A DNA stretch of 64,000 nucleotides from a virus. Taxonomy: Duplodnaviria; Caudoviricetes. Location: IMG/VR virus record IMGVR_UViG_3300025867_000005; one strand, written 5' to 3'. A model generated the notes under the pieces. It ran no database searches and had not been told where the DNA came from. It was given only the letters and a program-made list of their open reading frames with translations. Shown piece by piece: positions 22,781 to 50,575 of this stretch. Each line of letters starts with the position of its first letter. The first letter of the stretch is position 1. Made by a program: the position numbers and the translations under genes.

Positions 22781-22813
22781 AACAAAAAACCCTCTTTGCG
22801 ATTAGATGTCAAT

Positions 22814-22842
22814 ACATTATCACAAAAGAGGGTTGTTGTCAA
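22814..22842 (-). promoter_or_regulatory. Sigma70-type promoter TTGACA-N17-TAATGT, overlapped by an inverted repeat
   Basis: Perfect -35. AACCCTCTTTGCGAT / ATCACAAAAGAGGGTT inverted repeat spans 22788-22834. Confidence 0.7.
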
Positions 22843-22852
22843 CTGTCTTGGT

Positions 22853-23077
22853 TCAAACTTTTGTTACGACAACGACAAAACTTGACTTCCCTTGAAAATC
22901 CATAACTTTGGAATCCCCAAAACAAGCGTAATCCGTCATACAGACATCCACGGTTTCACATAACCGATTCATTCTGTCTTCTGTAATTCCGTTATATCCT
23001 GAATTTGCTACTGTCATACAATACGTCCCGCGATACTCTGTATCCGACAGGGACTTTAGAAGGTTACTGAATTTCAT
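22853..23077 (-). CDS. Hypothetical protein
   Basis: AGGAG RBS upstream, 74 aa. Confidence 0.5.
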   Translation of the reverse strand: MKFSNLLKSLSDTEYRGTYCMTVANSGYNGITEDRMNRLCETVDVCMTDYACFGDSKVMDFQGKSSFVVVVTKV

Positions 23078-23103
23078 TGAATTTTAACTCCTTTTGGCTT
23101 AAA

Positions 23104-25494: not shown

Positions 25495-25522
25495 GTCTTT
25501 TATCTCCTTTGTTATGCCGTAT

Positions 25523-25551
25523 ACTATATAGAATTTTATCCTACTTGTCAA
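25523..25551 (-). promoter_or_regulatory. Sigma70-type promoter TTGACA-N17-TATAGT for rtcB
   Basis: Near-consensus boxes upstream of a GGAG RBS. Confidence 0.8.
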
Positions 25552-25738
25552 TACCGTCAAGACACAAATCAAGACTATCTCCCATTTTATAGAAAGATCG
25601 TCCGTTTTTATCCCACATCAGGTTCTTGATTCTGATTTTAGGGACTTCCTTGATAACAACCTGACCACGATAGGGATATTCTGTTTCTCCTTCTACCGTC
25701 CTGAAATTGATGACCCTTTTCCCTGATTTAGTTTGCAT
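25541..25738 (-). CDS. Hypothetical protein
   Basis: 65-aa ORF with GGGG RBS. Confidence 0.5.
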   Translation of the reverse strand: MQTKSGKRVINFRTVEGETEYPYRGQVVIKEVPKIRIKNLMWDKNGRSFYKMGDSLDLCLDGIDK

Positions 25739-36377: not shown

Positions 36378-36686
36378 TTAAATACATTTAAAGTCAATGC
36401 CGTATCCAAAAATACTTCTCGTCTTGTTTGAAAAACAATGGTTAATTGCGCTGATTAACAAACCTTCGAATGCTGTCAGGAAATACCATCCACGCCCTTT
36501 TAACGGATGTGAAAGAACGTATATCCTTTCGCCGTCCCTACAAAATGCAAATTGACTTCCATTGCCTGAAGTATTGACTTCGAAGTATTTGTCTTTCAGC
36601 GGGACTTCACGGAGAATCGCGTTGGAATGAATGACATCGCTGTATTCCTTAATGATTTCGTCTATGCTTTTGTTTTCAGTCGGCAT
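36378..36686 (-). CDS. Hypothetical protein
   Basis: GAGG RBS, overlaps the ligase stop. Confidence 0.55.
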   Translation of the reverse strand: MPTENKSIDEIIKEYSDVIHSNAILREVPLKDKYFEVNTSGNGSQFAFCRDGERIYVLSHPLKGRGWYFLTAFEGLLISAINHCFSNKTRSIFGYGIDFKCI

Positions 36687-37833
36687 CCTCTTTCTTGCCT
36701 TTTTGGAGTAAATACTTTCGACTTACAGTCTTGAAACTGACATTCGGGTCATTGATTTTTGAGAAGACCAATCCTTCACGCAACTGATCTGGTTTGAGTT
36801 TGGAAAATCCGTCTGCGAATTCCAAAATAGAATTGACATCCGGGAACTGAGTAAGCCATCCGTCCCAAATGACAGGAACGACTTTTAGTTCTACTTTGAT
36901 TCCAAATTTCGCCTGAACACCATCAAACAGTTCTCTCATTTTGTAAGGATTGAAAAAGCTAACGCTTCCGTCCCTGTAATTTATCTTCACTCTGTAGACA
37001 TACAAATCTGGTTCCTTTAGACAATAGATATTGTTGCAAATCTTTGGTCCGATGATTTCTCCCTGAATCGCTACTGATTTAACACTTTTTCCAAGAAGGG
37101 ACAGGATTCCTTTTAAGTATGCTCTGATTTGATAAGCGTCATACATCTGCCACCAAACATTTTGACTTCTCGAAAGTTTCATATTCCTGCTACAGACTTT
37201 GAAAGAAGTCCCGAACAATCCGATTCTGCTGATAGAAAAAGTTGCGCTAGAACCTTCAATTTTCTCACTGGCAATGAACTTAGAATCGGCTTCTGTCTGA
37301 AGAATTCCTGGCATACACTGAATCCGGGTTTCGTCAGATTTAGAAATGATATCCGAAGGGAATCCTCCTTTTTCTTTGGACAGGAATGGAAGAATAAGCG
37401 TCCGCATGATCTTGTATTTCAAAAGGAACTTCAGAATCTTGGAATCCTTTTTATTACTGATAACGGTTTCAGGATCAGTTTCTTCTTTTTCATACTTGAC
37501 GATACCAAGCCTATCTGTCAAATCCGCTCCTTCCGTCAATCCGAGAGATTCTACATCAGGGAACAAAGACAAAGGCAAAGCAAGACCTTGGCTTACTTGA
37601 CCAGCCATCTTTACCGTCTTAACACGGTATTTCCGATTAGCCATGAAGGCAAAAACAGGATTTTCTTTCGGAAGCAAAGAATCGGTTTCAAAGAAAACGC
37701 AAAGATCACCGGTTTTGAAATCACTGCGTTTTGCGACAAGTTCCCATCCCAATACCTTCACCTTAACGACGGTATTGGCTCCTGGAATTTCTTCAACTGA
37801 AACAATTTTCTGAATACTGGCAAGTTTTCTCAT
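36676..37833 (-). CDS. ATP-dependent RNA ligase, DRB0094/Rnl2-like, with N-terminal OB-type domain
   Basis: MRKLASIQKI...GDLCVFFETDSLLP, KSDETRIQ, motif I SEKIEGSS, VCSRN, IQGEIIG, REGLVF, SFK. Confidence 0.9.
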   Translation of the reverse strand: MRKLASIQKIVSVEEIPGANTVVKVKVLGWELVAKRSDFKTGDLCVFFETDSLLPKENPVFAFMANRKYRVKTVKMAGQVSQGLALPLSLFPDVESLGLTEGADLTDRLGIVKYEKEETDPETVISNKKDSKILKFLLKYKIMRTLILPFLSKEKGGFPSDIISKSDETRIQCMPGILQTEADSKFIASEKIEGSSATFSISRIGLFGTSFKVCSRNMKLSRSQNVWWQMYDAYQIRAYLKGILSLLGKSVKSVAIQGEIIGPKICNNIYCLKEPDLYVYRVKINYRDGSVSFFNPYKMRELFDGVQAKFGIKVELKVVPVIWDGWLTQFPDVNSILEFADGFSKLKPDQLREGLVFSKINDPNVSFKTVSRKYLLQKGKKEDAD

Positions 37834-38165
37834 TTATTTTCCTTGTTAAAAACAGGTTCGACTTTTGCATACCACCGGAGGATGTTTTCCGCATCCAAAT
37901 CCGTTTCTTCTCGTTTGTCTATGATTTGGGAATACCATCTCAGTGTTTCCCGAGAAAGACAGTAAAAACACAACTTTTCTTCATACTTCTCAGCAAGTTC
38001 CAACAGATTTTCTTTGTCTTTGTCTTCTGAGATTTTAATCGTTTCCCTTATCTCTTGAAGAATTTCAAACATTTCTTTGCCCATTTTCAATATCGACAAT
38101 GTGTTCTTAAACAACATGTCAAGAAGATTCTTGCGCATTTCGTCTGTAATTTTAACGCTTGCCAT
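37830..38165 (-). CDS. Hypothetical protein
   Basis: 111 aa, ATGA overlap with the ligase. Confidence 0.55.
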   Translation of the reverse strand: MASVKITDEMRKNLLDMLFKNTLSILKMGKEMFEILQEIRETIKISEDKDKENLLELAEKYEEKLCFYCLSRETLRWYSQIIDKREETDLDAENILRWYAKVEPVFNKENK

Positions 38166-38188
38166 TTTTTAGCCTTCTTTCTGTAAAA

Positions 38189-38542
38189 TTAGGTTACATT
38201 GAATTCGATTATGAAACAGGCCTTCTCTCTTCCGATTGATTTCCTGATATCTTCACCCCATTCGATATTCAGCTCTTCTCCGCAGAATTCGAACATGTCT
38301 GCACCTTCCTGTATGTCTGTCGATTTCGTCCCGTACAGGAAAGAAAGCTTTCCGTCCACAGAATCAATCTTTGTCGGTTCAGGGAATTGATATTCAATAC
38401 CGTCAATGACGATAAGGATAATATTGTTCAAAGGTCTGCGGATAACGTGCTGACAAACACCAGAAACCGTTATCCCGTGCCTTGTAAACCCGACATTCTT
38501 GCCGATCATGCTATAAATTGAGAATCGATTGTTGTCTTCCAT
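38189..38542 (-). CDS. Hypothetical protein
   Basis: GGGG RBS, about 117 aa. Confidence 0.55.
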   Translation of the reverse strand: MEDNNRFSIYSMIGKNVGFTRHGITVSGVCQHVIRRPLNNIILIVIDGIEYQFPEPTKIDSVDGKLSFLYGTKSTDIQEGADMFEFCGEELNIEWGEDIRKSIGREKACFIIEFNVT

Positions 38543-38557
38543 CAAGAAAATTCCCCT

Positions 38558-39766
38558 TTAAATATAATCATAGTTTTCATCATCTGATTTTGTGAATTCT
38601 GTTGCTTTTTTCCCGAAACAGACGCGGAAGAGTTCGTCAGCCGCCGCCATCTCGTCTTGCAACACGGATTCGAAATAACAGAATTTGACGGCATTCGCCA
38701 ATGCCTGAACATTATTTTCCTGTTCGGCTTTGAACATATGAAAGGCATCACAGATGTCAATTACCTTTGTTGTGGAAAACGGAGTAAGGATTTCTCCGTC
38801 TTTCATCGCTTTGCGTAGACAATCTTTGAAATTCATAAATTTCACTGCGGTTTCGCAATCAAAGATGTTCCTGCTGATAATTTCACGTTCTGCCAGCTTG
38901 TCATACCCGAACCGAAAGGTTGCGGTAATACGCTGAATCATGGATGCGTCCAAAGCCCGACGTTGTGCCGAATATTGTTGCTGATTCGAAGACGCTCCAA
39001 GGCCATTGGTATTTCCAGCCAAGACGATGACAAAACCGGGATGACTTTTAACGACCCTTCCGCCATCTTCTGACAGGGAAATTTCACGAATCTTGTTCCT
39101 TGTCTCTAAGAGCGCGTTAAGACTGATTCCCACGCTCGGAGGAAGGCTTGCCGCTTCATCGATAAACAGAATGCCAGGTTCTCCACAGATGTTTCCCTGT
39201 TCGTCTAGCCCTTCCTGCATAGCCCTGACGGCGATACCGTCAGAAAAGACAATTTTATTTTTTCCTGTTTCTTTGTCGATCACAACGGTATTCGCACCGA
39301 AAAAGTTACTTGGTGTGGTTCCACCGTCACCGTTTAACTTGTAAAGCTTACGGTTAAGGGCAGTCGCCAGATACCTTGCGGCGGTAGTTTTACCGCAACC
39401 ACTGGGTCCGCTAAACCAAAAATTCATTGCACGATCAGCTTTCATCATCGTGATAACCTGTTTGAGGAAAGCCGGCACATGATAATTCTCAAACCCCGGA
39501 ATCTTCTCAAAGACATCTTCTGGGGCCTCTTCTTTTTCCTGTTTGATAGCAACAGCTTCAGGTTTGGGGGCATGAAAAGCCCCAGCAATAGGCTTTAAGG
39601 AAACCGTATTATCCTTGTAATACAGGAGATATCCGCTCTTAAATGCCCTGATCTTAATTGCCTTGAGATCTTTACTGGAAATCCCGTTTTCAAAAACAAG
39701 AGATCCTTCTGTTCCCGTTTTCCACAACGTTTCAAGCTTAGAATAATCTTTGTTCGTGATTGTCAT
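38558..39766 (-). CDS. MoxR/CobS/CbbQ-like AAA+ ATPase
   Basis: Walker A GPSGCGKT, Walker B LFIDEA, LNALLE, HPGFVIVLAGNT, LDASMIQR. Confidence 0.9.
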   Translation of the reverse strand: MTITNKDYSKLETLWKTGTEGSLVFENGISSKDLKAIKIRAFKSGYLLYYKDNTVSLKPIAGAFHAPKPEAVAIKQEKEEAPEDVFEKIPGFENYHVPAFLKQVITMMKADRAMNFWFSGPSGCGKTTAARYLATALNRKLYKLNGDGGTTPSNFFGANTVVIDKETGKNKIVFSDGIAVRAMQEGLDEQGNICGEPGILFIDEAASLPPSVGISLNALLETRNKIREISLSEDGGRVVKSHPGFVIVLAGNTNGLGASSNQQQYSAQRRALDASMIQRITATFRFGYDKLAEREIISRNIFDCETAVKFMNFKDCLRKAMKDGEILTPFSTTKVIDICDAFHMFKAEQENNVQALANAVKFCYFESVLQDEMAAADELFRVCFGKKATEFTKSDDENYDYI

Positions 39767-39796
39767 AAATAGCCTTTCTCGTTTGTCTTTAATCAA

Positions 39797-39825
39797 ACTG
39801 TATCATTACTTCTCGCTGTTGTCAA
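39797..39825 (-). promoter_or_regulatory. Sigma70-type promoter TTGACA-N17-TACAGT
   Basis: Perfect -35, 17-bp spacer. Confidence 0.75.
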
Positions 39826-39830
39826 TAGGT

Positions 39831-41462
39831 CTAGGCTTTTCCCCTGTTCCGAGTAACGATATCGGCGATTTTCGTCAAAACCGTCTTTGAAAATGCGTTG
39901 CCTTCAGAGGAATTGATTTCTGAAACATATTCTTTTCCGTAATGGACGGCAACAGCGTTTCCACAGTCGATAGATAAGGCGTAAACTTCTATCCCGTTCT
40001 TCCTTGCATCGGAAAGAACACGAGAGAGGTTGTTGGAAACTTTTTCATCTGACTTTTCATCTTGACCGCTAAAAGTTTCCCCATCAGTAATGACGAAGAT
40101 AATCTTCCTCTTTTCCTTACGTAGGCTTAGATTTGAAACTGCATAAGAAATGGCTTCACCGTCGATATGATTCTCTATCCCGTGATAATTCATCACGGTA
40201 GAACCAACACTGTTCCAGTTGTCTTCAAACTTCTTGTAGATTGAAAACACCATGCTTCTCCATCTTGTAAAACAAAAGTTCTTGTTTCGTGGGGTTTTTG
40301 TAGAAGAACCGAAAATTTCAAAAGGAACTTCAATCCTGTGAAGCGTTTCTCCCAAAACGATCATCGTGTCTATTACGTATTTGGAAACATTGCACATAGA
40401 ATAGCTTTGATCAACACAGATGGAAACCGCCGTATTCAAATCCAAACCTTCATGGATATCAGTAAATACGTCTTTCCTCAAGGAAAAAGCGATTTCAGGA
40501 AGCATCTTTGTGTTGATATTCCCGGATTCCAACCCCGAAATGACGGAATTGTTGACAACCGCTTCCATCTTTTCCTGAATAGAAGAAACCAAAGAGAGAA
40601 GCGGTTTGCCGAGTTTGGCTTTCCGTTCGCGGTATTTCTCTTTCAGAAAGGCAAAAGGATTAACGACTTCAAAGACATCTTCGTCTCGATACGCGGTATA
40701 TACTTCACCTGATAACTTTAATGCCGAAACCTTTGAAGAGATATTATTGTTCCGTTCTTCTTTGATTTCAGAACCACTGATATTGTCTGTTTTTTCAGCA
40801 TCCCCTTCTTCGCAATCGGGTTTTGTTCCTTCTTTTGAAGTTTTCCCATTATCATTGCTTTCTAGATCTTTAATCTCATCTTTCCAGAGTTCAAAAATCT
40901 GTTTGGCAAGAGCTAAGTTGTCTTCAGAAGACAGAGACTCTTTCCATTTTGAGAAAATCGGATAGGCGGATTCAATCATGTTGATCGTCTTTTCATCAAT
41001 GTCCCATTTGGGAACGAGATTGATTTCAGAAAACATCAGGTACAAAATAGCATCGCTAAATCCGCTGTTTATCTTCCCGTCTTTCTTTTCTGAAATTTTA
41101 ACGAAGATGTTTCGGTTTGAATTATTGATGCTGATTCCGATTCCGACATATTCTTTACTGATTTTGTCTTCAATCCACAGATCTTCAATCGCATTCCAAA
41201 TCTTGAAAATGCAACTTTGTTCCTTTATGTCAGAACTGTAAAGGATGTGCCCTAGTTCATGAAAGCAATCGGCTCTAAGGTTTTCTTTGCTTTCTTCATC
41301 CAAGGTCTGAGAACAACAGATTACAGGAATGTGGATTTCCCGTTCTTTGATCCGTGCGAAAGGAGTTGCCCCTTCTTTTTCCCAAATGACGCGGATAGAA
41401 TTGTCCTTGCATATCGCATTGACAACCGTTTCCATTGTTTGAGTAAAGTATCTGTATCCCAT
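39831..41462 (-). CDS. CobT-like protein with HExxH N-domain and vWA (MIDAS) domain
   Basis: HELGH, WNAIEDLWIE, VDQSYSM, DGEAI and VITDG motifs; adjacent to the MoxR ATPase. Confidence 0.85.
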   Translation of the reverse strand: MGYRYFTQTMETVVNAICKDNSIRVIWEKEGATPFARIKEREIHIPVICCSQTLDEESKENLRADCFHELGHILYSSDIKEQSCIFKIWNAIEDLWIEDKISKEYVGIGISINNSNRNIFVKISEKKDGKINSGFSDAILYLMFSEINLVPKWDIDEKTINMIESAYPIFSKWKESLSSEDNLALAKQIFELWKDEIKDLESNDNGKTSKEGTKPDCEEGDAEKTDNISGSEIKEERNNNISSKVSALKLSGEVYTAYRDEDVFEVVNPFAFLKEKYRERKAKLGKPLLSLVSSIQEKMEAVVNNSVISGLESGNINTKMLPEIAFSLRKDVFTDIHEGLDLNTAVSICVDQSYSMCNVSKYVIDTMIVLGETLHRIEVPFEIFGSSTKTPRNKNFCFTRWRSMVFSIYKKFEDNWNSVGSTVMNYHGIENHIDGEAISYAVSNLSLRKEKRKIIFVITDGETFSGQDEKSDEKVSNNLSRVLSDARKNGIEVYALSIDCGNAVAVHYGKEYVSEINSSEGNAFSKTVLTKIADIVTRNRGKA

Positions 41463-41493
41463 TTTTGTTCCCTTTCATTTCAGAAACAGAAAT

Positions 41494-41522
41494 AAGATAC
41501 CACATTCAGACCCTGTTGTCAA
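41494..41522 (-). promoter_or_regulatory. Sigma70-type promoter TTGACA-N17-TATCTT
   Basis: Perfect -35, TG upstream of -10. Confidence 0.75.
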
Positions 41523-41528
41523 ATCCGT

Positions 41529-42908
41529 CTATGCTTTCGGATTCAACAACCTCTGACTTTCAGTTTCCCACTTTTTCATCAGGGCGATTTTCAAACACTT
41601 GTCTTTAAATTCAGCCCCGGTTACAAGGGAATCCGTAACGACATTCTGAATTTCTTCCGGCCATTCGGAAAGGATTTTTTCAGCGAGAGCTGTCTGTCCT
41701 TCACGGCCAAAAGGCTTCACTTCATGACATTCATCTATCCTCCCCGGCCTTAAAAGAGCAGGATCTATTTTGGAAATGTTGTTAGTCGTTACGGCAAAGT
41801 AGACCCCGTTTATTTCATTGATACCGTCAATCGCATTGATGAAAGTAGAGAAAGTCAAAGGGTTCTGCATCGTGTTTTTGCTTGTTGTTTCCCGTCCGTT
41901 AAAAACGACATCAATATCTTCAAACAGGAAAAAGGAAGGATTATAGTCAGACACTCCTCCGCTTTTCCCATAGCGCAAAACGGAATCCAAAAATTCAGAA
42001 TCCCTAAAAGAAGCAAGGTTGAAGACATAAATGTCCATTCCGAGCATCTTCGCTATATTACGGATAAGACTTGTTTTCCCCGTGCCTGGGAGTCCATAAA
42101 GGCACATTCCCCTTTTCCAAGGAATATCCATGCCCTTATACCAACTCCGCATATTCATCCAAGTTTCCACTTCTTTAATAACGGGAAGCAAGTCTTCACC
42201 ATAATAGAACATGTCAAAAGGAGTCTTCTGCTTCAATTGGTATTCAAAACCCTTGAGCGTTTCTGAATACTGACGGTCTATATACTTAGTTAGGTTTACG
42301 CCGCCACCAATTCCTCCACCGCTTGCACTCTTTGCTTCACTGGAAGGAGAATCTGAAGATGATGTTACCATCTTCAGATCGGCATTTCCTTCGTTTTTAG
42401 ATGAAGAATTTCCAAGTGAACCGTTGACGAAAACGATGTTAGAATATTCTTTCCTATATATGTTTTCTTCTTTTAGATCTTCTTCTCTTCGTCCCAAACT
42501 GCATTTTATGTTTATGTCAAAAAGTTCTTTTCCTATTTTTATGGCATTTAGGGTGAACCTGACATAAATTATCTGTGCTTTTCCTAACATATTATCATAC
42601 TTTATGATAACCGGAAACGGGAGAAACCCGATACAGATTTTGTTCCGAAACCTTGATTTTAGTAAGCTGAATCTGATTTTGGATGTTTCATGCATTTCTT
42701 CTAAGAAATATGTACTGTCTCCGAAACAGTAAATCCGTTTGCTTTTGATCCATTCAAAAAACGCCATAGCGCTTAAGTCTTCATATGAAGTCACACAGAT
42801 GAAAACAGACCGAAAGGAGTTAATGATATTCCTTACTTGGGAAAAAGCAGTAGCTAAAACGGCACCGATACCGCCCGTAGCCATCGCCGTTGTTAAACCA
42901 ATGCTCAT
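41529..42908 (-). CDS. Membrane-anchored BCS1-like AAA ATPase
   Basis: Hydrophobic N-terminus; PWKRGMCLYGLPGTGKTS, FEDID, FINAIDG and IDPALLRPGRID motifs. Confidence 0.88.
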   Translation of the reverse strand: MSIGLTTAMATGGIGAVLATAFSQVRNIINSFRSVFICVTSYEDLSAMAFFEWIKSKRIYCFGDSTYFLEEMHETSKIRFSLLKSRFRNKICIGFLPFPVIIKYDNMLGKAQIIYVRFTLNAIKIGKELFDINIKCSLGRREEDLKEENIYRKEYSNIVFVNGSLGNSSSKNEGNADLKMVTSSSDSPSSEAKSASGGGIGGGVNLTKYIDRQYSETLKGFEYQLKQKTPFDMFYYGEDLLPVIKEVETWMNMRSWYKGMDIPWKRGMCLYGLPGTGKTSLIRNIAKMLGMDIYVFNLASFRDSEFLDSVLRYGKSGGVSDYNPSFFLFEDIDVVFNGRETTSKNTMQNPLTFSTFINAIDGINEINGVYFAVTTNNISKIDPALLRPGRIDECHEVKPFGREGQTALAEKILSEWPEEIQNVVTDSLVTGAEFKDKCLKIALMKKWETESQRLLNPKA

Positions 42909-42909
42909 T

Positions 42910-43965
42910 TTACTTGTTCCTTTCCCACGAAGTGATTGTATCCATGAAAAGACGGTTTACTGCCTTCATATTGCAGGAATCCGGAAGTCCGATCGCACCA
43001 TTCATCTTTCCTTCGACATAATCAGAAATTGGATTTGCGACATCCATTAATTCTTCATATGTGAAGGCTCCTTCACGAATTTTGCGAAGGAATTCCAAAT
43101 CCTTACCTTGGAATCTGACAATCGGTTCCCCGTTATCTACGATGTTTTTGGCAGACATCAGGATTCTGATCAAATGTAAAATATTCTTTTCATCAAAATC
43201 TAGACCTTTTTCTTGATTTTTCCATCTATCAGGATTCCTGTTCTTCATCCAATCCCAATATTCCTTCCACTTGGTCAAAGCTGTCTTAAACCCGTCTTCC
43301 TGATAGGTAAGCATTCCGATACAGGTGTCAGAATCTTGTTTCGGAACGCTTTCAAAGACAAGCATATCCCCTTTGAAGACACCGCTTCCATTCGGATAAA
43401 GGTTGTAACAATTGGTTAGGTGTGGAACGGCAGTCGCACGGCAAGTCGTAAGATCAATTCCGGTTTCAGAAATCGGGATTGTAACTGTCTTGCTGCCTTC
43501 TTTGACGGCAACCCAGCAGAAATCCAAACGGGACGGCCGATCTACAGACATCGGGTTGTTGATAAGTTTGTTCTGGCCTCTTGCTTTTTTCAATTGGGAA
43601 ATGGCATAACAGCTATGGGTGAACACCGCCTTCTTTGTAATAAACATGTTGCGGTTGGTTAGGATGTTCTCCCACTCAGTAGAGGTCTTGACAATACAAT
43701 CAGGAGGCAACCACAGAAGTTCGATGATATTCGGAGTTGCTTTAATCGCAAGATCGAAAAACTTCTTCAACTCATACAGCTTGTCATCTTCCTCTTCCGG
43801 ATTTACGGTTTCATGCGGGAGATCAAACAATCCGATCCTTTCAGATGTAGGAAGGATAAACACTCCACGGTAATCCGTATCACTGGTCGGTAAATTCGTG
43901 CCGTAAGCCCGGCTTCCGGTAATTCCCTTGAAAAAACAGTTTCGTAGAGCATCATAATAATTCAT
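42910..43965 (-). CDS. Pol-beta-family nucleotidyltransferase (RlaP/YcgL-like)
   Basis: GSRAYGTNLPTSDTDYRGVF, YELKKF, PNIIELLW and HLIRIL motifs. Confidence 0.88.
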   Translation of the reverse strand: MNYYDALRNCFFKGITGSRAYGTNLPTSDTDYRGVFILPTSERIGLFDLPHETVNPEEEDDKLYELKKFFDLAIKATPNIIELLWLPPDCIVKTSTEWENILTNRNMFITKKAVFTHSCYAISQLKKARGQNKLINNPMSVDRPSRLDFCWVAVKEGSKTVTIPISETGIDLTTCRATAVPHLTNCYNLYPNGSGVFKGDMLVFESVPKQDSDTCIGMLTYQEDGFKTALTKWKEYWDWMKNRNPDRWKNQEKGLDFDEKNILHLIRILMSAKNIVDNGEPIVRFQGKDLEFLRKIREGAFTYEELMDVANPISDYVEGKMNGAIGLPDSCNMKAVNRLFMDTITSWERNK

Positions 43966-43994
43966 TTTTTCTCCTTTTGAAATAATCAACAAAC

Positions 43995-44023
43995 AATATA
44001 CCTTTTCTTGACGCATTTGTCAA
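43995..44023 (-). promoter_or_regulatory. Sigma70-type promoter TTGACA-N17-TATATT
   Basis: Near-consensus; divergent from TTTTGATA at 44042. Confidence 0.8.
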
Positions 44024-44072
44024 TATAGTAAAGTTGTCTTTTTTTGATAGAATCCACATAGCTGAGGTAAAA

Positions 44073-44840
44073 ATGAACCACTTCTTCCTAAAATCGATGC
44101 TTCTTGTTTCTCTTTCACTTTTTTCTTTCAGAAGTGAAGCAGTAGAAATTGATGTCGGACTGGCATTGAATAGCTTTAACTCCAGAATCCTTAGTCTGGA
44201 AAGCAAATCCGGCGCTCAGGAAATGCTCAACAATGGATTTGTTTCTTATATGGACAGAGGTTATTCTCAAGCCCTGACGGATAATCTAACGAATCTTCTT
44301 CTGAAAGTAGACACAAGATTCGGGATGACAAACCTTACACTTTTCGGGGTTGAAACCGTGCTTATAGAAGGTGTCCCTATCGTACAGACGAATGTCGTCT
44401 GTAAATTTATAGACAATCACACTTTTGAACAAATTATTTCCGGCATCAATTCAAATTTCAACAGCCATATTTCAGAAACCAACGCCCATTACGTAACCAC
44501 GGAATTGATAGGTGCCGTTTCTGTAACCAACAGTTATCAATATGTTTTGCCTTCCGTTTCAGAAACAAACAAATTCGTTCTGTCTTCAAATGCAGTATAC
44601 CGCATTTCAAATCTGACCCAGGATATCATCTTTGACACTCCTGAAACAGTATCAGGTAAGTATTCAAGTTTCCACATACACCTTACAAAAGGAAGCGGGA
44701 CTGTTACTTTCTTCCCGAATATAACCTGGATCTACGGAGAACCACCGGAATTGGACATTGAAGGGACAACATATGTGTTCGGGTTCGAATCTTTAGACGG
44801 CGGGCAAACCTGGAGAGGGTGGATTGAATATACTTACTAG
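44073..44840 (+). CDS. Secreted fibre-like protein
   Basis: GAGG RBS; signal-peptide-like MNHFFLKSMLLVSLSLFSFRSEA; fibre motif HISETNAHYVT; C-terminal TVTFFPNITWIYGEPP...DGGQTWRG module. Confidence 0.65.
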   Translation: MNHFFLKSMLLVSLSLFSFRSEAVEIDVGLALNSFNSRILSLESKSGAQEMLNNGFVSYMDRGYSQALTDNLTNLLLKVDTRFGMTNLTLFGVETVLIEGVPIVQTNVVCKFIDNHTFEQIISGINSNFNSHISETNAHYVTTELIGAVSVTNSYQYVLPSVSETNKFVLSSNAVYRISNLTQDIIFDTPETVSGKYSSFHIHLTKGSGTVTFFPNITWIYGEPPELDIEGTTYVFGFESLDGGQTWRGWIEYTY

Positions 44841-45561
44841 ACTTCTTTTTCTGTTTCCTTTATTTCTGTTCGGTGGAGAAATCCGTTTCCGAGAGGACTT
44901 CAGCAATCCCGATTTCAAGGTTTCCGGAGAAACTGTTTCTGTCGATGTAAAAGACGGGATTAATGTTCAGGAACCTGGTTCACCGGTTTTGCCTTGTTTC
45001 GTTTTCAGCAAGCCGATAAGCAGAAATGAAAAGGTAGAAAACATTTCTTTTACGGTTTTCTCTTCACAAAAGTATGTACTAGAGAAACGGGTTAAAACAG
45101 CAGAAACACCTTTTAATGAAAACGGTATCGGGAAGGTTCAGGATTCACTTTTTACCGCCGTTACAGGAACCAATGTTTTCAGTTTCCACAGCTTTACAAA
45201 TGTCACAGATTTAAAATTCAACACCTTTATCTCTACAAGGATGCTACGGCCTTTTGATTTCAGCATCGTTTCAGATTCAAACCCGCTTACTCTTTAGGCT
45301 TTGACGATAAAAGATATCCGTCTTCCCAAAGGCATGCTTTTGGACATAGATAAAACCGTGATTGAAGAAAATGATATTTCTAATATCCTTCTGGCATATT
45401 TCCCTTCCCTTTCGGACTGGAATACTTCTAAAATAAGAATCAATTTCTTTATCGATGATTACAAAAAACAGAAACCAATTTCTATTGGAAAGCAATCAAG
45501 TGAAATTCTAGCATTTGAATCAAATCTTGTAAGGCTATTTCTTAAACCAAAACGAACTTAA
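44824..45561 (+). CDS. Secreted protein with a gingipain (C25) propeptide-like N-domain; one in-frame TAG at 45295-45297
   Basis: Signal-peptide-like start, EPGSPVLP motif; ORFs 44824-45297 and 45301-45561 share a frame and are separated only by TAG-GCT. Confidence 0.5.
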
Positions 45562-45594
45562 ACCCAAAGTGATTTTAAAACTAAGTGACTAAAG

Positions 45595-46425
45595 GAATCC
45601 CGGACGGCCTTGATAACAAGTTCCGGGGGCGTAACGTCAAGGAAGCATTTATGGATTTCCGTATCGCAATTCTTGTCTGTAATCGACACTGTTAAAAACA
45701 GAAACATGTCGGATTCAAACAAGACCCTGTAATAAGGTGAAGATAGCAGGAACACGGCCTTCGCGTGAAGGAGCGGAGCCAAAAGGGATAACCCGGTTGG
45801 CTTAATGAACTCTATAGCCTATGGATATATGGTGGAACACCAACCCGTTAATCTATGGGACGTTGACCAGCGACAGGGAATAACAACACCTGTGGGGATA
45901 TAGAGAAGGTATGCCTAGTCTGCCTAATAGACTAGTGTAGGTTTGTGGGGGACACCCGCTGCACGAGGGGCATACAGAGATATGGCGTAATTCCATTCTC
46001 AGTCTGCGATAGCGTATACCGATTCTCAACCTATACGATTAGCACATCAGGATTTCCTTAACAGAATCCTGTAAAAAGAATGAATGGAACAGATATGATA
46101 AGACTTTGTTCTTATACCTCTTCCTTGTAGAAGGGGGAAAATCTGTTCCTTCATTCCCTCAAACTCACCGACCGATATCACACATACGGGGATTTCCCCA
46201 AATGTTCTTCGAACAATTTGTTGGTCCCTGATCCCCTGTGTGATTCCAATGAAAAGACATTGTTTTCAAAAATTACTAAAATTAAATCCTGATTCATGTA
46301 CTGAAAGGGAATGATCAGGATCAGAACACCGGGTATTCACGGTTTCTGAAATATTCAAGATGCCAATGATTTAAGGTATTTTTAGGTATTGGTTTTTAAA
46401 GCCTTTTCGTTAGAAAAGCTGAAAT
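45595..46425 (+). ncRNA. Candidate large structured non-coding RNA, family not recognised
   Basis: About 900 bp without a credible ORF in a gene-dense genome; more than 15 stems including nested multibranch junctions; mismatches resolve as G-U on the + strand. Confidence 0.65.
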
Positions 46426-46461
46426 TGTTTTTCTATATGTCGGATAGAGGAAAGAACACTT

Positions 46462-47070
46462 ATGACAAAAGAAGAATTGAAAGAAAGTATAGAAACGAGA
46501 ATAAGGTCAAATCAAGTTTACAAGAAAGAGATCAAAGAGAAAGAGGATTTGATTGTCGGTAATACAGAAAGATTGAATGTTGTCAGAACGCTTTTCAACA
46601 CGATTGAAGATTTGAGTCTTAATAAACGGAATCTGTACAAAAACAGGATAGAGACAGTCGTTACAGAAGTTTTGAAAACGTTATACGGAGAAGAATACAG
46701 TTTTGAAATGTCTTACGGAGACAAGAACAACAGATCGTTTCTGGATATCGAAGTCAAGAAGCAATACGGAGACTATGCCGTTAAAAGGGATATGTCGGGA
46801 CACGGTGGCGGGATTTCAGACAGTATCAGCATCCCTTTACGTGTGCTTATTCTTAAAGGAAGTCAGGATGTCGGGGATATCTTGTTTCTAGACGAAGCCT
46901 ACAAACATGTCGATACCAGCATTTCAGAGAATGTCGGTCTGTTTTTGCGTCAGCTTTGCGAGAAGATGCAGATGCAGATTATCATGCTGAGCCACAACGA
47001 AGATATTCTTCAACAAGCGGAACGGGGATTCTATTTGGAAAACAGAAACGGGAAAGTCTATATCCGTTAA
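46462..47070 (+). CDS. SbcC/Rad50-like ABC ATPase, C-terminal half
   Basis: Coiled coil, signature-like HGGG, Walker B LFLDEAYKHVD, H-loop QIIMLSH; no Walker A. Confidence 0.8.
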   Translation: MTKEELKESIETRIRSNQVYKKEIKEKEDLIVGNTERLNVVRTLFNTIEDLSLNKRNLYKNRIETVVTEVLKTLYGEEYSFEMSYGDKNNRSFLDIEVKKQYGDYAVKRDMSGHGGGISDSISIPLRVLILKGSQDVGDILFLDEAYKHVDTSISENVGLFLRQLCEKMQMQIIMLSHNEDILQQAERGFYLENRNGKVYIR

Positions 47071-47102
47071 ACACATGCTTTGTTCTGTTGAAAGGGAAAA
47101 AT

Positions 47103-48377
47103 ATGTCAGAAGAAAATTACGAAGGTTGTTACGGACCGAAATTGACTGTTTCAGGAATCATCGAAAAACTCATACAGGCATTCGCTTCAGATACCGAAGC
47201 CGAAGAAAAGAGATCAGGAGAACGGTTTTCTACAGTTATCTGGGGTCGAGCGGGAATAGGGAAAACAAGTCTTGTCAGAAGTCTTCAAAACCGAGAAGTT
47301 TCTTACAGGGGCAATACCTATCAGGGTTACAAAATAGTTTTTGTTCCTCTTGCCGATATCGAGGAAGTCGGGGATATCATCGGCATGCCGGAAAGACATG
47401 TCTGTGTTTCAAACGGACAGAAAGAAAAATGGGTACCGGAATCCTGTATCGGGATTTATACGGAAAAATTCGGATATTCGCTTTTGCCGGACAAGGGTGT
47501 CAAACAATTCGTTGCCCCTCCTGAATGGGTGCCGGTTCCGGATTCCGAAGGTTATGCCGAACCGACTGTTATTCTCGTAGATGATTTCAACCGTGCGAAT
47601 TTACGGGTATTGAAAGCCTGTATGCCTTTATTCCAGACATATGCAACAATCGGATGGAAACTTCCAAAAGGATGCCATATCGTACTTACAGGGAATCCCA
47701 GCCAGCAGGATTATCAAGTTACGGATATCGATCCCGCGATATTGACAAGAATGAGGCACATCACTTCCGTTTTTGATATCAAGGAATGGATCAATTGGGC
47801 AGATACGGCAGGTCTTGACAAGAATCTTTTGGGGTTCTGCGCCTATTATCCTGAAATGATGTTCGGTAAGCTTCTTACCAACCCGAGGACGATTTCAGAA
47901 GCCTTCCGTTTGCTTAAAACCAACGGATTGTCTACGGAATGTGTGGATGAAAGAAAATTGAAGAACCTGAAAGATTCACTCCTTATGCTTGTCGATGAAG
48001 ATTTTGTGAATGCTTTTGTTTCTTATGTGGTTTCAGGAGATAATATTTTCTTGAGTCCTGAAGACATTCTTTCTGATTCTGTATCAACAAAGAAGAAGAT
48101 CAGCAAGTTGTTGACAGGAAGCGTCAAGAGGTTGGATATCATCAGCATCTTTTCTAGCCGTCTTGTCAGAAATATTTGTTCTGAAACCATCGAGTTTACA
48201 GAAGAAAAGGCAGTAAACTTCCATTCTTTCCTGTTTGAATCTGGATTGCCGCAGGATATCGTCATGTCGGCGCTACTTGAAATGAATAGTCCACAAAACC
48301 TTCTGCCTTGTTTACCTTGGATGAATAACCCTTCTTTCTCTTTTCTCATGTCTGAATATTATTCATCAAAGGCATAG
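47103..48377 (+). CDS. MoxR-like AAA+ ATPase
   Basis: WGRAGIGKT, GDIIGMP, ILVDDFNRA, TGNP, DPAILTR and NPRT motifs. Confidence 0.88.
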   Translation: MSEENYEGCYGPKLTVSGIIEKLIQAFASDTEAEEKRSGERFSTVIWGRAGIGKTSLVRSLQNREVSYRGNTYQGYKIVFVPLADIEEVGDIIGMPERHVCVSNGQKEKWVPESCIGIYTEKFGYSLLPDKGVKQFVAPPEWVPVPDSEGYAEPTVILVDDFNRANLRVLKACMPLFQTYATIGWKLPKGCHIVLTGNPSQQDYQVTDIDPAILTRMRHITSVFDIKEWINWADTAGLDKNLLGFCAYYPEMMFGKLLTNPRTISEAFRLLKTNGLSTECVDERKLKNLKDSLLMLVDEDFVNAFVSYVVSGDNIFLSPEDILSDSVSTKKKISKLLTGSVKRLDIISIFSSRLVRNICSETIEFTEEKAVNFHSFLFESGLPQDIVMSALLEMNSPQNLLPCLPWMNNPSFSFLMSEYYSSKA

Positions 48378-48395
48378 ATCTTTCATTTTACCCTA

Positions 48396-48424
48396 TTGAC
48401 AGGAAGCCGGCGGTATGATAAAGT
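48396..48424 (+). promoter_or_regulatory. Sigma70-type promoter TTGACA-N17-TAAAGT
   Basis: Perfect -35, upstream of the cell-wall hydrolase. Confidence 0.75.
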
Positions 48425-48457
48425 ATTCACATAACTTAAACACAAAAGGAATCTGTT

Positions 48458-48880
48458 ATGTTGAAGAAAATCATGTTCGTTGTTATTATGTCAGTAGTTT
48501 CCGCATATGCAGCTCCGATTGATGATTTAGCCAAAACCTTGTATCATGAAGCCCGTGGAGAAGGGGAAACGGGAATCCGTGCCGTTGCCAGCATCATCGT
48601 CAACCGCGCAAAGAAAGACGGAGCCGTTACCCCTGTTGCATTGTCGAAAGTTGTCCGTCAGAAGTATCAATTCAGTTGTTGGAACGGACAAACCAATTTG
48701 AAAACAGGAAAAGGCCAGTCTTGGTTGGTTTGCCGGATGGTTGCAGGAGAAATGGTAAACGGGCAATTCAAATCCGTTCACAATTACACGCATTACTACG
48801 CCTTTCGGAACTGCAATCCTAAATGGGCAAAAGGCAAGAGTAAAATGGTTATCGGTAATCATGCTTTCCTGAATCCTTAA
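48458..48880 (+). CDS. SleB/Hydrolase_2-family cell-wall hydrolase with signal peptide
   Basis: LYHEARGE, AVASIIVNR, YQFSCWN, THYY and IGNHAF motifs. Confidence 0.92.
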   Translation: MLKKIMFVVIMSVVSAYAAPIDDLAKTLYHEARGEGETGIRAVASIIVNRAKKDGAVTPVALSKVVRQKYQFSCWNGQTNLKTGKGQSWLVCRMVAGEMVNGQFKSVHNYTHYYAFRNCNPKWAKGKSKMVIGNHAFLNP

Positions 48881-48928
48881 GAAGAAAACAATGAAAATCT
48901 ATGATTTTCATTATAAAAAGGGGTAAAT

Positions 48929-49747
48929 GTGCAAAAAATTTTGGCGATGTCAGACCTGCACCTTAATTTCGGTATAAATCCAGGTGTCAGGCGTAAATTT
49001 TTTAATCAGATCAAGGGATCAAATTCCCCGATTATCATTGCAGGGGATATCGGCGACGGTCATTCTCTTCGTAATAATCTAGAAGAATTGGCATCAGCTT
49101 GTCAATCTTCTGTCTATTTCATAACAGGCAATCATGATTATTACCATTCTGGTTTTGAAGAAATAACGAATATTATCAGAAAAACCGTAAGCGAAAATCC
49201 AAATCTTGTCTATTTGACAGATTCAGGCATCATCAGCCTAGACACGGATACCTGTGTTGTCGGGGTTGATTCTTGGTATGATGCCAAAATTGTTCCAGAA
49301 GGGGCATATCTACCAATGATTATGAATGATTTCCGTTATATCAAAGAACTATGCCTGTTCTACAAAAGTGAATCAGAAGTCGTTAAGACTTTTCAAGACA
49401 GGGCTGAAACGGCATTGGAAGATTTGAAGACAAGGCTTTCTAAAGCTGTAAAGAGATACAAAAACGTTATCGTCGTCAGTCATCCAGTGCCTTTCGGTTG
49501 CATGGATACTAAAAAGAGTAGTGACGCCGCTCCGTTTTATGTATGGTATAAGGCGGGTATGTTCATTGCTGATTTCGCAAAAGACCATCAGGAAACAAAA
49601 TTTTTATGGATTTGCGGTCATACTCACGAAAGATCAGAATGGCATAACGAGAATCTGGATGCCTATTGCCTTGGGTCAGAATACTTTTCCCCGCGTGTAG
49701 ATGCCGTGATTACAGACTTGAAACTAGAATATCTACCGATTAAGTAG
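48929..49747 (+). CDS. Calcineurin-like metallophosphoesterase
   Basis: SDLH, AGDI, GNHDYY, VSHPVP and CGHTH motifs. Confidence 0.92.
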   Translation: MQKILAMSDLHLNFGINPGVRRKFFNQIKGSNSPIIIAGDIGDGHSLRNNLEELASACQSSVYFITGNHDYYHSGFEEITNIIRKTVSENPNLVYLTDSGIISLDTDTCVVGVDSWYDAKIVPEGAYLPMIMNDFRYIKELCLFYKSESEVVKTFQDRAETALEDLKTRLSKAVKRYKNVIVVSHPVPFGCMDTKKSSDAAPFYVWYKAGMFIADFAKDHQETKFLWICGHTHERSEWHNENLDAYCLGSEYFSPRVDAVITDLKLEYLPIK

Positions 49748-49774
49748 GGTTTAAATGAAAAGGAAGGTGAAACT

Positions 49775-50575
49775 GTGTCTATAAAAAACATTACAGTCGT
49801 TATGACTGAACTCGAAAAGCATATCATCAGGGAAATTCTTATTCCGAGGATCAAGGCTTTGCCAGAAACTGAAAGTTACAAGGGAAACGCTTATGACTAT
49901 TATCTGAATCTGCTTAAAGATGAAAGCACTTTGGAAGTCATTTCGATGAAAACTTGTGGTTTCATTTACAAGACATTCTGTGGCTATCCGCAGGATATTT
50001 TGGATGATATGATGTCAGATATCGTTTCTGCCACAATTCAGGACAAAACCAACGGATACCGTAAACTCAAAAAGTCAACACACGGATTTTGGAAAGACAG
50101 ATTCGGCTTGAATCCGGAGAATTCTTCTTTCTCAACTTCATTTTCAAACGTATGCTTTCGGGCGGTTCAGACAGCGGCCAAAACACTGGAAACCAGAAAA
50201 AGACACGAAACCAATGATTTTATGATGAAAACTGAAAGAGGTGATGACCTTTCGTATATTGAAACCGTTAAGGATGACAGGAACACAGATGAAAAGACTG
50301 GGATAATGGCAGGATATGATAAGATCATCTATGAGATGTACGATTATGTTCTGAATCAGACAGACCTTGATGAAGTCTCAAAAATGATTTTCAAGGTTTG
50401 GTTTTCAAAGAAAGAAGAACGGATGGATTTTTCTGTTCCTGTACGAATGTCTTCAGAAGTATATCCTGTTGTCCGAGCTATGCTGATAGAAAAAGGGGAA
50501 AAGACATTAAGTTCTGGTTCTCTACACATCAGATGGAAACGCGCTTTCCAGAGAATCAGGGAATTCCTTGATTAA
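49775..50575 (+). CDS. Possible divergent sigma-factor-like regulator
   Basis: FSTSFSNVCFRAV resembles region 2; C-terminal ...WKRAFQRIREFL resembles the end of region 4. Weak similarity. Confidence 0.35.
   Translation: MSIKNITVVMTELEKHIIREILIPRIKALPETESYKGNAYDYYLNLLKDESTLEVISMKTCGFIYKTFCGYPQDILDDMMSDIVSATIQDKTNGYRKLKKSTHGFWKDRFGLNPENSSFSTSFSNVCFRAVQTAAKTLETRKRHETNDFMMKTERGDDLSYIETVKDDRNTDEKTGIMAGYDKIIYEMYDYVLNQTDLDEVSKMIFKVWFSKKEERMDFSVPVRMSSEVYPVVRAMLIEKGEKTLSSGSLHIRWKRAFQRIREFLD

What the first reader, a model, noticed from the sequence alone, without database searches (positions are those of the whole stretch)
45562..46461. A ~0.9-kb densely folded non-coding region: candidate new large phage RNA
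Seen: this is the only long gap without a credible ORF in the window, and it is tiled with stems. Examples: CCCGGA/TCCGGG; CCTTC/GAAGG; GGTTGG/CCAACC; GTATGCC (45909)/GGCATAC (45969) enclosing CTAGTCT/AGACTAG and GTGTAG/CTGCAC; CGTATA/TATACG; CAGGATT/AATCCTG; GAATGAA-t-GGAACAGAT (46078)/ATCTGTTCC-TTCATTC (46141) enclosing two hairpins (three-way junction); ATCACACA..GGGGAT/ATCCCC-TGTGTGAT; TCCTGAT/ATCAGGA; TCAGAA/TTCTGA; CTTTTC/GAAAAG. Non-Watson-Crick pairs are repeatedly G-U on the + strand (CCTCTTC/GAAGGGG, TTTAAGG/TTTTAGG, GTGTAG/CTGCAC), which favours a + strand RNA over DNA cruciforms. Known: phages carry large structured RNAs such as GOLLD and ROOL. Inference: a large ncRNA, which I could not assign to tmRNA, RNase P or an intron. 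A replication origin is the main alternative.
Basis: partly seen in the sequence, partly recalled or inferred. Interest (0 to 1): 0.85.

Follow-up and report, generated by a model that had tools for sequence, protein, structure and literature searches.

The report
Large folded RNA gene, jumbo phage
The 0.9-kb gene-free gap in this 304-kb phage most likely encodes a large, intricately folded RNA of an uncatalogued family, and it lies where the genome's strand composition flips, so it may sit on or beside the replication origin.

Summary
Window 45562-46461 is the longest ORF-free stretch in the window under the standard code and under TAG, TGA or TAA reassignment, and it is packed with hairpins.

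The strongest evidence is comparative. A related phage, whose flanking ATPase is 77% identical in protein and 72% in DNA, keeps the same gap in the same place.
- The core 45740-46350 is 89.6% identical. That equals second codon positions next door and is far above third positions (50%).
- Indels lengthen, shorten or add whole hairpins. One 8-bp stem becomes 17 bp.
- A third, partial relative keeps a 3' hairpin through two double compensatory changes.

No Rfam family matches, GOLLD and ROOL included. The element is single-copy and was not found in 150 related bacterial genomes.

- Folding excess is modest against coding controls.
- G-U pairs do not settle the strand.
- With only two full sequences, covariation cannot be tested formally, and no RNA data were available.

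New here: in both phages the cumulative G-C minimum falls at the element's 5' edge, and gene-by-gene skew fits a bidirectional origin inside the gap.

Best reading: a new large phage RNA. Main rival: an origin-priming transcript.

This scan had already flagged the sister copy on other DNA (e1-3954592).

The parts
45566..46420 (+). Whole conserved element: candidate gene for a structured RNA of about 0.85 kb. The ends are approximate.
   Evidence: Identity to the relative is 80% at 45561-45760, 88-93% at 45761-46260 and 83% at 46261-46360. It drops to 66% in the last 100 nt before the ATG. The element is single-copy by covariance models R1 and R2.
45498..45588 (+). Three direct AAGTGR words (45498, 45567, 45583) at the 5' edge. 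They could be a promoter or a binding site; the role is unknown.
   Evidence: All three are kept on the same strand in the relative, and the last two are 16 nt apart in both. The background rate is about 1 per kb on both strands.
45585..45667 (+). 5' multi-stem domain (CCCGGA/TCCGGG, CUUG-AUAA-CAAG, GGCG-UAA-CGUC).
   Evidence: The consensus fold shows one double compensatory pair and several G-C/G.U switches.
45678..45717 (+). Hairpin.
   Evidence: Two double compensatory changes against the relative, U-A to C-G and G-C to U-A.
45755..45803 (+). Twin hairpins CGGCCUUC..GAAGGAGCG and GAGCCAA..UUGGCUU.
   Evidence: They lie inside a 68-nt block that is invariant between the two phages.
45810..45905 (+). 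Branched domain closed by CUCUAUA/UAUAGAG.
   Evidence: It folds alike in both phages. The relative carries an extra 18-nt insertion that forms its own small hairpin, and three one-sided transitions keep their pairs.
45909..46044 (+). Most conserved block: GUAUGCC/GGCAUAC domain with two inner hairpins, hairpin 45977-46000, and hairpin 46005-46044 with a 13-nt loop.
   Evidence: It is 98% identical to the relative. The only clustered changes fall in the loop of 45977-46000. Local MFE z is only -0.4, so selection here appears to act on the sequence as well as on the fold.
46048..46071 (+). Hairpin of variable length.
   Evidence: The stem is 8 bp here and 17 bp in the relative. An 18-nt insertion there extends both arms, and the loop keeps CUUAAC.
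46078..46160 (+). Three-way junction.
   Evidence: MFE z is -4.8. In the relative one arm shrinks while the outer helix and the CUUCC/GGGGG arm are kept. Changes from G.U to A-U keep their pairs.
46181..46242 (+). Long irregular hairpin.
   Evidence: Both phages give the same fold. U-A becomes A-U by a compensatory change, and U-A becomes U.G.
46245..46285 (+). A/U-rich, poorly conserved linker.
   Evidence: It is AT-rich in both phages but differs in sequence and length.
46286..46348 (+). Two 3' hairpins.
   Evidence: The second hairpin (46322-46348) is kept in three phage types. ACCG/CGGU here becomes CCCC/GGGG in L009, which is two double compensatory changes.
46400..46420 (+). Hairpin AGCCUUUUC-GUUA-GAAAAGCU, a possible 3' end.
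   Evidence: The sequence is conserved in all three phage types. It is not followed directly by a U run, and the terminator scan found nothing. The same motif occurs in unrelated phage contigs.
45400..45600 (.). Global minimum of cumulative G-C in the window.
   Evidence: Searches place it here. In the relative's 85-kb contig the same feature lies about 100-300 nt before the element.
46462..47070 (+). Downstream neighbour: 202-aa protein resembling the C-terminal half of an SbcC/Rad50-type ATPase.
   Evidence: It matches phrog_15167 and weakly phrog_77, an SbcC-like family. A distant relative has a weak SMC_N hit and lies with AAA_15/AAA_23 and Metallophos genes.

Best explanation
The gap is a single-copy gene for a multi-domain structured RNA of about 0.8 kb on the + strand, roughly 45566-46420. 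It belongs to a family that is not in Rfam.

Proposed mechanism: it is transcribed rightward at the head of the rightward gene block and folds into about 15 helices. These form a 5' domain, a large multi-branched core, an A/U-rich linker and 3' hairpins. It then acts as a free-standing folded RNA during infection, in the manner of the large 'ornate' phage RNAs GOLLD and ROOL, rather than as a message or a DNA site.

Shown:
- There is no coding capacity.
- Selection acts at the nucleotide level.
- Hairpins are preserved across indels and compensatory changes.
- The element is single-copy and confined to a small phage clade.

Inferred:
- that it is transcribed at all;
- the strand and the ends;
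- action in trans;
- any assembly or partner.

My odds that it is an RNA gene of some function are about 0.75. My odds for this particular trans-acting reading are about 0.45.
For: Coding capacity:
- There are no ORFs under four codes.
- Small ORFs shared with the relative differ only by non-synonymous changes, 5 of 5 in each of two frames.

Conservation:
- Core identity is 89.6% over 588 aligned nt. In the adjacent ATPase gene, codon positions 1, 2 and 3 are 77%, 89% and 50% identical.
- Flanking coding sequence averages about 68%.

Structure across relatives:
- Indels lengthen, shorten or add whole hairpins, and sub-domains folded independently give the same shapes in both phages.
- Six pairs carry double compensatory changes and 17 carry pair-keeping one-sided changes.
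- The third phage type keeps a hairpin through two double changes.

Strand and composition:
- The + strand is favoured. Consensus energy is -203 versus -172, one-sided kept changes number 17 versus 7-11, and z is -6.8 versus -3.9.
- GC is 0.48 against 0.31-0.38 in the flanks.

Other:
- There are no iterons.
- The last 100 nt before the ATPase start diverge like neutral DNA, which suggests a unit separate from that gene.
Against: - Only two full sequences and one 157-nt fragment exist, so covariation cannot be tested statistically.
- A permutation test on single-sequence folds gives P of about 0.002 on both strands alike.
- The strand-symmetric G.U versus A.C tests are neutral.
- Folding z in 500-nt pieces is matched by 2 of 20 coding controls.
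- No promoter or intrinsic terminator was found.
- There is no transcript evidence.
- Unlike GOLLD and ROOL, it is not near tRNAs.
- Its position at the skew switch is not explained by this reading.
Confidence: 0.45

Rival explanations
1. Origin-coupled RNA. The gap is the phage's bidirectional replication origin, and the structured transcript is part of it. It would be a pre-primer or R-loop-forming RNA whose fold controls priming, working like ColE1 RNA II or the phage T4 oriF/oriG transcripts. The A/U-rich stretches would serve as unwinding regions.
For: Position of the skew switch:
- The global minimum of cumulative G-C lies at the element's 5' edge in both phages. It is at 45400-45600 in the window, with the element starting near 45566. 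It is at 42000-42200 in the relative, with the element starting at 42290.

Gene-by-gene skew:
- Genes pointing away from the element have coding-strand skew of +0.12 to +0.15 on both sides.
- The + strand genes to its left read -0.007 and -0.048, and -0.165 and -0.19 at third positions. These are 14 genes (19 kb) in the window and 5 genes (8.5 kb) in the relative.
- Third-position skew jumps across the gap, from -0.17 to between +0.20 and +0.31 in the relative.

Other:
- GC skew is an accepted guide to origins in huge phages (PMC7162821).
- Three conserved AAGTGR words sit at the edge.
- AT-rich stretches lie at 46245-46285 and 46350-46460.
- Unchecked notes from this scan place other large huge-phage RNAs beside replication genes.
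Against: - Skew also follows gene orientation, and skew alone cannot place an origin more precisely than about 1 kb.
- The left-side + strand genes are fibre-like or secreted proteins, whose composition could differ for other reasons.
- A lytic phage has no obvious need for an 800-nt fold just to prime.
- No classic iteron array is present.
- The DNA polymerase is reported far away, in an unchecked note.
- Whole-genome skew could not be computed because only 64 kb and 85 kb were available.
Confidence: 0.22
2. DNA-only origin or other DNA site. The hairpins would matter as DNA, for example as extruded or single-stranded structures bound by initiator, primase or the neighbouring SbcCD-like nuclease. 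No functional RNA would be involved.
For: - The skew switch falls at the gap.
- Watson-Crick-only folding is already very stable, at -236 kcal/mol against -155 to -204 for coding controls.
- The strand tests are neutral.
- The element lies next to an SbcC/Mre11-type gene set.
Against: - About 15 different hairpins and branched domains spread over 800 nt, with GC raised above the flanks and 90% identity throughout, is unlike known origins. Those have short repeated boxes and AT-rich spacers.
- No iterons are present.
- Consensus energy and pair-keeping transitions favour one strand.
- G.U pairs sit inside conserved helices.
Confidence: 0.1
3. Long structured 5' leader, or processed operon segment, that controls the downstream ATPase/MoxR/Mre11-like genes in cis.
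For: - The element lies directly upstream of the same ATPase gene in the window and in the L002 type. The P0005-type contig also has a 1117-nt gap there, whose DNA could not be read.
- No terminator was detected between the element and the gene.
- No separate promoter was found for the element.
- A five-pair long-range helix to the region just before the ATG shows two compensatory changes, which could well be chance.
Against: - At 0.8 kb it is far larger than known leaders.
- The 100 nt next to the start codon are the least conserved part.
- ATPase relatives at 43% identity or less have no such gap.
Confidence: 0.1
4. Not a functional element. It could be a recently exchanged mobile segment, a decayed gene, or a chance ORF-free patch.
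For: - Only two haplotypes are known.
- Folding z is not unique in the window.
Against: - 127 substitutions and several indels separate the two copies, so the exchange is not recent.
- Identity grades from the core outward and has no sharp edges.
- Synteny is kept on both sides.
- Indels respect hairpins.
- No frame is conserved.
Confidence: 0.04

Closest known systems
GOLLD RNA (Rfam RF01998)
   Same: Both are large (about 800 nt), multi-domain, phage-borne RNAs with no protein partner identified. Both have conserved structured parts joined by a variable, poorly structured linker. The function of GOLLD is unknown, and it forms an RNA-only 14-mer cage (PMC12286853).
   Different: There is no match to the covariance model even at E up to 10. 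No tRNAs are nearby. The host phage is a 304-kb phage whose relative was binned with a Paludibacteraceae genome. Self-assembly has not been tested.
ROOL RNA (Rfam RF03087)
   Same: Both are large ornate RNAs of phages and prophages with many multi-stem junctions. ROOL averages 581 nt (PMC5737381) and forms an octameric cage (PMC12286853).
   Different: There is no model match. This element is longer and not near tRNAs. Pseudoknots have not been shown. It is known from only two or three phage types.
ColE1 RNA II pre-primer and phage T4 oriF/oriG origin transcripts (from established knowledge)
   Same: In both cases a long transcript would start upstream of and run into a replication origin. In ColE1 the RNA's fold decides whether it primes. 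Here the element sits at the skew switch.
   Different: No sequence or model relation is known. R-loop formation, an RNase H site and an antisense regulator are all untested. The skew here suggests bidirectional replication, whereas ColE1 replicates in one direction.
Sister copy in a related phage (earlier scan finding e1-3954592; contig JALNVE010000002.1 and L001-L006)
   Same: It is the same family in the same position upstream of the same ATPase. Identity is about 90% in the core, and it is also absent from Rfam.
   Different: It is 944 nt against 900 nt. One stem is longer, there is one extra small hairpin, and one arm of the three-way junction is shorter. The body of its upstream gene differs (a Peptidase_C25 protein).

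Membership tests
GOLLD (RF01998) | Match to the Rfam covariance model | tested here: not met
   There was no hit at the gathering score or at E up to 10, in the window or in the relative.
GOLLD (RF01998) | Frequent placement beside tRNA genes in phages and prophages (PMC12286853) | tested here: not met
   No tRNA lies in the 64-kb window. In the relative's 85-kb contig the only tRNA is about 24 kb from the element.
GOLLD / ROOL | RNA-only homo-oligomeric cage | not testable with these tools
   This needs in vitro transcription with mass photometry or cryo-EM.
ROOL (RF03087) | Match to the Rfam covariance model | tested here: not met
   Searches found no match.
Other catalogued large RNAs (OLE, HEARO/omega RNA, raiA, group I and II introns, RNase P, tmRNA, rRNA) | Match to the respective Rfam model | tested here: not met
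   None was listed at E up to 10. ARAGORN found no tmRNA.
Structured non-coding RNA (general) | No conserved reading frame | tested here: met
Structured non-coding RNA (general) | Statistically supported covariation in a deep alignment | tested here: inconclusive
   Only two full sequences and one fragment are available. Six double compensatory pairs, hairpin-preserving indels and two more double changes in L009 are suggestive but cannot be tested formally.
Structured non-coding RNA (general) | A discrete transcript | not testable with these tools
   No RNA sequencing run was listed for this DNA.
Replication origin | Strand-composition switch at the site | tested here: met
   Searches show it in both phages.
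Replication origin | Iterons or initiator boxes and an AT-rich unwinding element | tested here: inconclusive
   There is no repeat family. Three AAGTGR words and two AT-rich stretches are present.
ColE1-type pre-primer RNA | Persistent RNA-DNA hybrid and an RNase H-made primer end at the origin | not testable with these tools
   This needs R-loop and nascent-strand mapping.

The most novel reading that the evidence does not exclude
The element is an origin-coupled RNA. Huge phages would start bidirectional replication at a large, intricately folded transcript whose structure governs priming, as a phage counterpart of ColE1 RNA II. The other uncatalogued large RNAs that this scan keeps finding beside huge-phage replication genes would be the same kind of device.
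Probability: 0.2. Interest if true: 0.85.

Novelty: new variant of a known kind. Interest (0 to 1): 0.6.

Why it matters
Large, elaborately folded bacterial and phage RNAs are rare. The few known ones (GOLLD, ROOL, OLE) turned out to build unprecedented RNA-only assemblies, and their biological roles remain unknown.

A further family carried by 200-300-kb phages of anaerobic digesters adds a new case to study. Its position at the apparent replication origin offers a concrete, testable idea of what such an RNA might do. It would also give a landmark for origins in huge phage genomes, which are otherwise unmapped.

Tried and rejected
Searches for further homologues:
- BLAST of the gap against GenBank phages and plasmids found nothing.
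- A protein-anchored search in IMG/VR with the ATPase alone found nothing. With an alignment it found five distant loci.
- The metagenome scan gave one L002-type locus and 22 loci at 43% identity or less. None has a gap of 350 nt or more beside the gene.
- A 24-mer from the core is absent from IMG/VR.
- The 3' hairpin motif hits eight IMG/VR contigs, none with further similarity.
- A core 18-mer in 185,579 species genomes hit only the L002-type contig truly.
- Models R1 and R2 found nothing in distant loci, in a 182-kb relative's locus, or in 150 genomes of the MAG's family.
- DNA for the P0004, P0005 and P0006 contigs was unavailable. P0009 proved to be a fragment of the L002 type.

Spurious-ORF searches:
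- One translation from the gap found nothing.
- Another matched only plectin-like repeats in giant proteins, at about 25 bits per stretch. I take this as chance.

Other attempts:
- No RNA holder was listed for this DNA.
- Weak Rfam hits (tracrRNA, snoRNAs, symR, AfaR) differ between the two phages and are noise.
- A T-rich TTTGATA motif is enriched upstream of genes (12 of 61 pieces against 1.2 expected). It has no good copy at the gap, and in some cases it may be partly terminator tails.
- The consensus promoter and terminator scan gave nothing useful.
- The G.U versus A.C strand tests were neutral.

Full report
**Setting**

The window is part of an uncultivated phage genome of about 304 kb. 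It has been assembled independently several times at 303.4-304.5 kb from anaerobic-digester-type metagenomes.
- Left of the finding lies a minus-strand block. It holds RtcB with an intein and HNH insert, an RNA ligase, a CobS/CobT-like MoxR and VWA pair, an AAA ATPase and an RlaP nucleotidyltransferase.
- Two or three plus-strand genes follow at 44034-45561. One is fibre-like.
- Then come the 900-nt gap and a plus-strand block. This starts with a 202-aa SbcC/Rad50-like C-terminal ATPase piece, a MoxR-like ATPase, a cell-wall hydrolase and a Metallophos protein. It runs on to the terminase and portal genes.

**The observation**

The sequence is as described.
- The gap is the longest ORF-free stretch in the window.
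- It stays closed when TAG, TGA or TAA is read as sense. This check matters because the clade seems to read TAG through (see the last section).
Two do not hold. GGTTGG/CCAACC is broken in the relative, and TTTAAGG/TTTTAGG is not conserved.
- The whole region folds better than shuffles, with z of -5.5 on + and -3.4 on -, and -6.8 versus -3.9 for 45585-46420.
- In 500-nt pieces the gap scores z of -3.1 and -3.5. Two of twenty coding controls reach -3.6 and -3.8. Another gap in the window, 22599-23103, scores -2.1 and -1.2. Folding energy is supportive but not decisive.

**Relatives**

The downstream ATPase has very few close relatives among 5.8 billion proteins.

The best, at 77% identity, lies on contigs of up to 208 kb (L001-L006, L015). 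One of them is binned in a Paludibacteraceae MAG (L064, G001). It has a 944-nt gap in the same place.
- Synteny holds on both sides, because the last 100 nt or so of the upstream genes also align.
- Identity is 80% in the first 200 nt of the gap, 88-93% over 45761-46260 and 83% over the next 100 nt. It is 66% in the last 100 nt before the start codon and about 68% (range 52-81%) across five downstream genes.
- Over 45740-46350 it is 89.6%. Codon positions 1, 2 and 3 of the adjacent gene are 77%, 89% and 50% identical. Nearly every nucleotide is therefore under selection as strong as at second codon positions.
- The two copies still differ by 127 substitutions and several indels, and identity grades outward. 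A recent transfer is therefore unlikely.

**Not coding**
- The small frames shared by the two phages differ only by amino-acid-changing substitutions, five of five in each of two frames.
- The indel lengths (18, 18, 10, 1, 5, 4, 10 and 13 nt) do not keep a frame.
- The longest frame with TAG read as sense is 106 aa here and 64 aa in the relative.

**Structure across relatives**

Folded independently, the sub-domains take the same shapes in both phages.
- The hairpin at 46048-46071 has 8 pairs here and 17 in the relative, because an 18-nt insertion extends both arms.
- The domain 45810-45905 gains a separate small hairpin.
- One arm of the three-way junction 46078-46160 shrinks while the outer helix is kept.
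- The hairpin 46181-46242 keeps its fold through a U-A to A-U exchange.
- The consensus fold has 228 pairs. Six carry double compensatory changes and 17 carry one-sided changes that keep the pair.
- A third phage type (L009, ATPase 71% identical) supplies only 157 nt upstream of the gene. It keeps the hairpin 46322-46348 through two double changes (ACCG/CGGU to CCCC/GGGG), and it keeps the sequence of the hairpin at 46400-46420.

These are the marks of a structured RNA. With two full sequences, however, no formal covariation test is possible. A permutation test on single-sequence folds gives fewer broken pairs than expected, with P of about 0.002, on both strands alike.

**Strand**

The plus strand is still favoured by consensus energy (-203 versus -172), by more pair-keeping one-sided changes (17 versus 7-11), by z-scores and by the direction of the neighbouring genes.

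**Known families and distribution**
- No Rfam family matches at the gathering scores or at E up to 10, in either phage. GOLLD, ROOL, OLE, introns, RNase P and tmRNA are thereby tested and not met.
- There is no similar DNA in GenBank phages or plasmids.
- Two covariance models of the core hit once per phage. They hit nothing in 150 other genomes of the MAG's family, nor in loci of distant relatives.
- ATPase relatives at 43% identity or less lack the gap. The element looks confined to a small clade.

**The origin question**

There is one, in both phages.
- The global minimum of cumulative G-C is at 45400-45600 in the window, and the element starts near 45566. In the relative's 85-kb contig it is at 42000-42200, and the element starts at 42290.
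- This is not simply the change of gene strand, which lies 1.5 kb further left in the window and 3.7 kb further left in the relative.
- Genes pointing away from the element have coding-strand skew of +0.12 to +0.15 on both sides. The plus-strand genes on its left read -0.007 and -0.048, and -0.165 and -0.19 at third positions. These are 14 genes in the window and 5 in the relative.
- Third-position skew jumps across the gap.
- A coding-strand effect plus a replication effect that changes sign inside the gap fits all of these groups.
- GC skew is used to infer bidirectional replication in huge phages (PMC7162821).

Caveats:
- The resolution is about 1 kb.
- The left-hand plus-strand genes are fibre-like or secreted proteins, whose composition may be unusual.
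- Whole-genome skew could not be computed.
- There is no iteron array. Three conserved AAGTGR words sit at the 5' edge and two AT-rich stretches lie in the 3' part.

**Reading**

An RNA gene of a new family is the best-supported account, at about 0.75 for any RNA function. Within that I favour a free-standing, trans-acting folded RNA of the GOLLD/ROOL kind (0.45). My reasons are its size, its ornate branching, nucleotide-level conservation even where local folding energy is ordinary (45905-46047, z -0.4), its variable A/U-rich linker, and the neutral-looking spacer before the next gene.

The main rival is an origin-coupled transcript that works like ColE1 RNA II or the T4 origin RNAs (0.22). 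It alone explains the position. A DNA-only origin (0.10), a cis leader (0.10) and a non-functional remnant (0.04) are less likely.

No promoter or terminator could be assigned, and no RNA data were available.

**Relation to earlier notes**

The sister copy was flagged and followed up before in this scan (e1-3954592). It was called a new large phage RNA of about 675 nt, with ROOL as the closest known. My independent tests agree on homology and on the absence of an Rfam match.

Other notes describe uncatalogued large RNAs beside replication genes in other huge phages. I did not check them and use them only as a lead for the origin idea.

**Noticed along the way**

The relative carries a tRNA with anticodon CUA. 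In the window, ORF 44824-45297 ends in TAG and its frame runs on to 45561. Together these fit amber read-through in this clade.

Noticed in passing
window 45295-45297; L074:7765-7841: ORF 44824-45297 ends in TAG and the same frame stays open to 45561. The related phage carries a tRNA with anticodon CUA, an amber suppressor type. This fits TAG read-through or reassignment in this phage clade.
   Followed up: partly
window 23104-25572 (-): The RtcB RNA ligase gene is interrupted by an intein with an HNH endonuclease (Pfam RtcB, Intein_splicing, HNH_3).
   Followed up: no
window 36676-44016 (-): A cluster of RNA-repair-type genes lies next to the element: an RNA ligase with a PHA02142 OB domain, a CobS/CobT-like MoxR and VWA pair, an AAA ATPase and an RlaP nucleotidyltransferase. 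Any link to the large RNA is untested.
   Followed up: no
window 46462-50575 (+); contig of P0006: The 202-aa ATPase looks like the C-terminal half of a split SbcC/Rad50-type ATPase. In a distant relative an AAA_15/AAA_23 N-terminal half and a Metallophos gene lie upstream of it. In the window no N-terminal half was identified; a MoxR-like ATPase and a Metallophos gene follow instead.
   Followed up: partly
window 44043, 50596, 56692, 7402, 31205 and others; 85-kb relative contig: A T-run followed by TTTGATA lies about 35-45 nt before many start codons. It occurs in 12 of 61 upstream pieces against 1.2 expected. It may be a phage promoter element, although some copies follow terminator hairpins. 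The TTG start listed at 44034 is probably wrong; an ATG near 44100 follows the motif.
   Followed up: partly
L074:6294-7144 (relative's 85-kb contig): A second stretch of 851 nt without an ORF of 90 aa or more lies about 0.6 kb from the tRNA(CUA). It has no Rfam match at the gathering score and was not examined further.
   Followed up: no
window 22599-23103: This 505-nt gap without an ORF of 90 aa or more lies downstream of RtcB. It contains a strong terminator-like hairpin on the minus strand, and its folding is otherwise unremarkable (z -2.1 and -1.2).
   Followed up: yes
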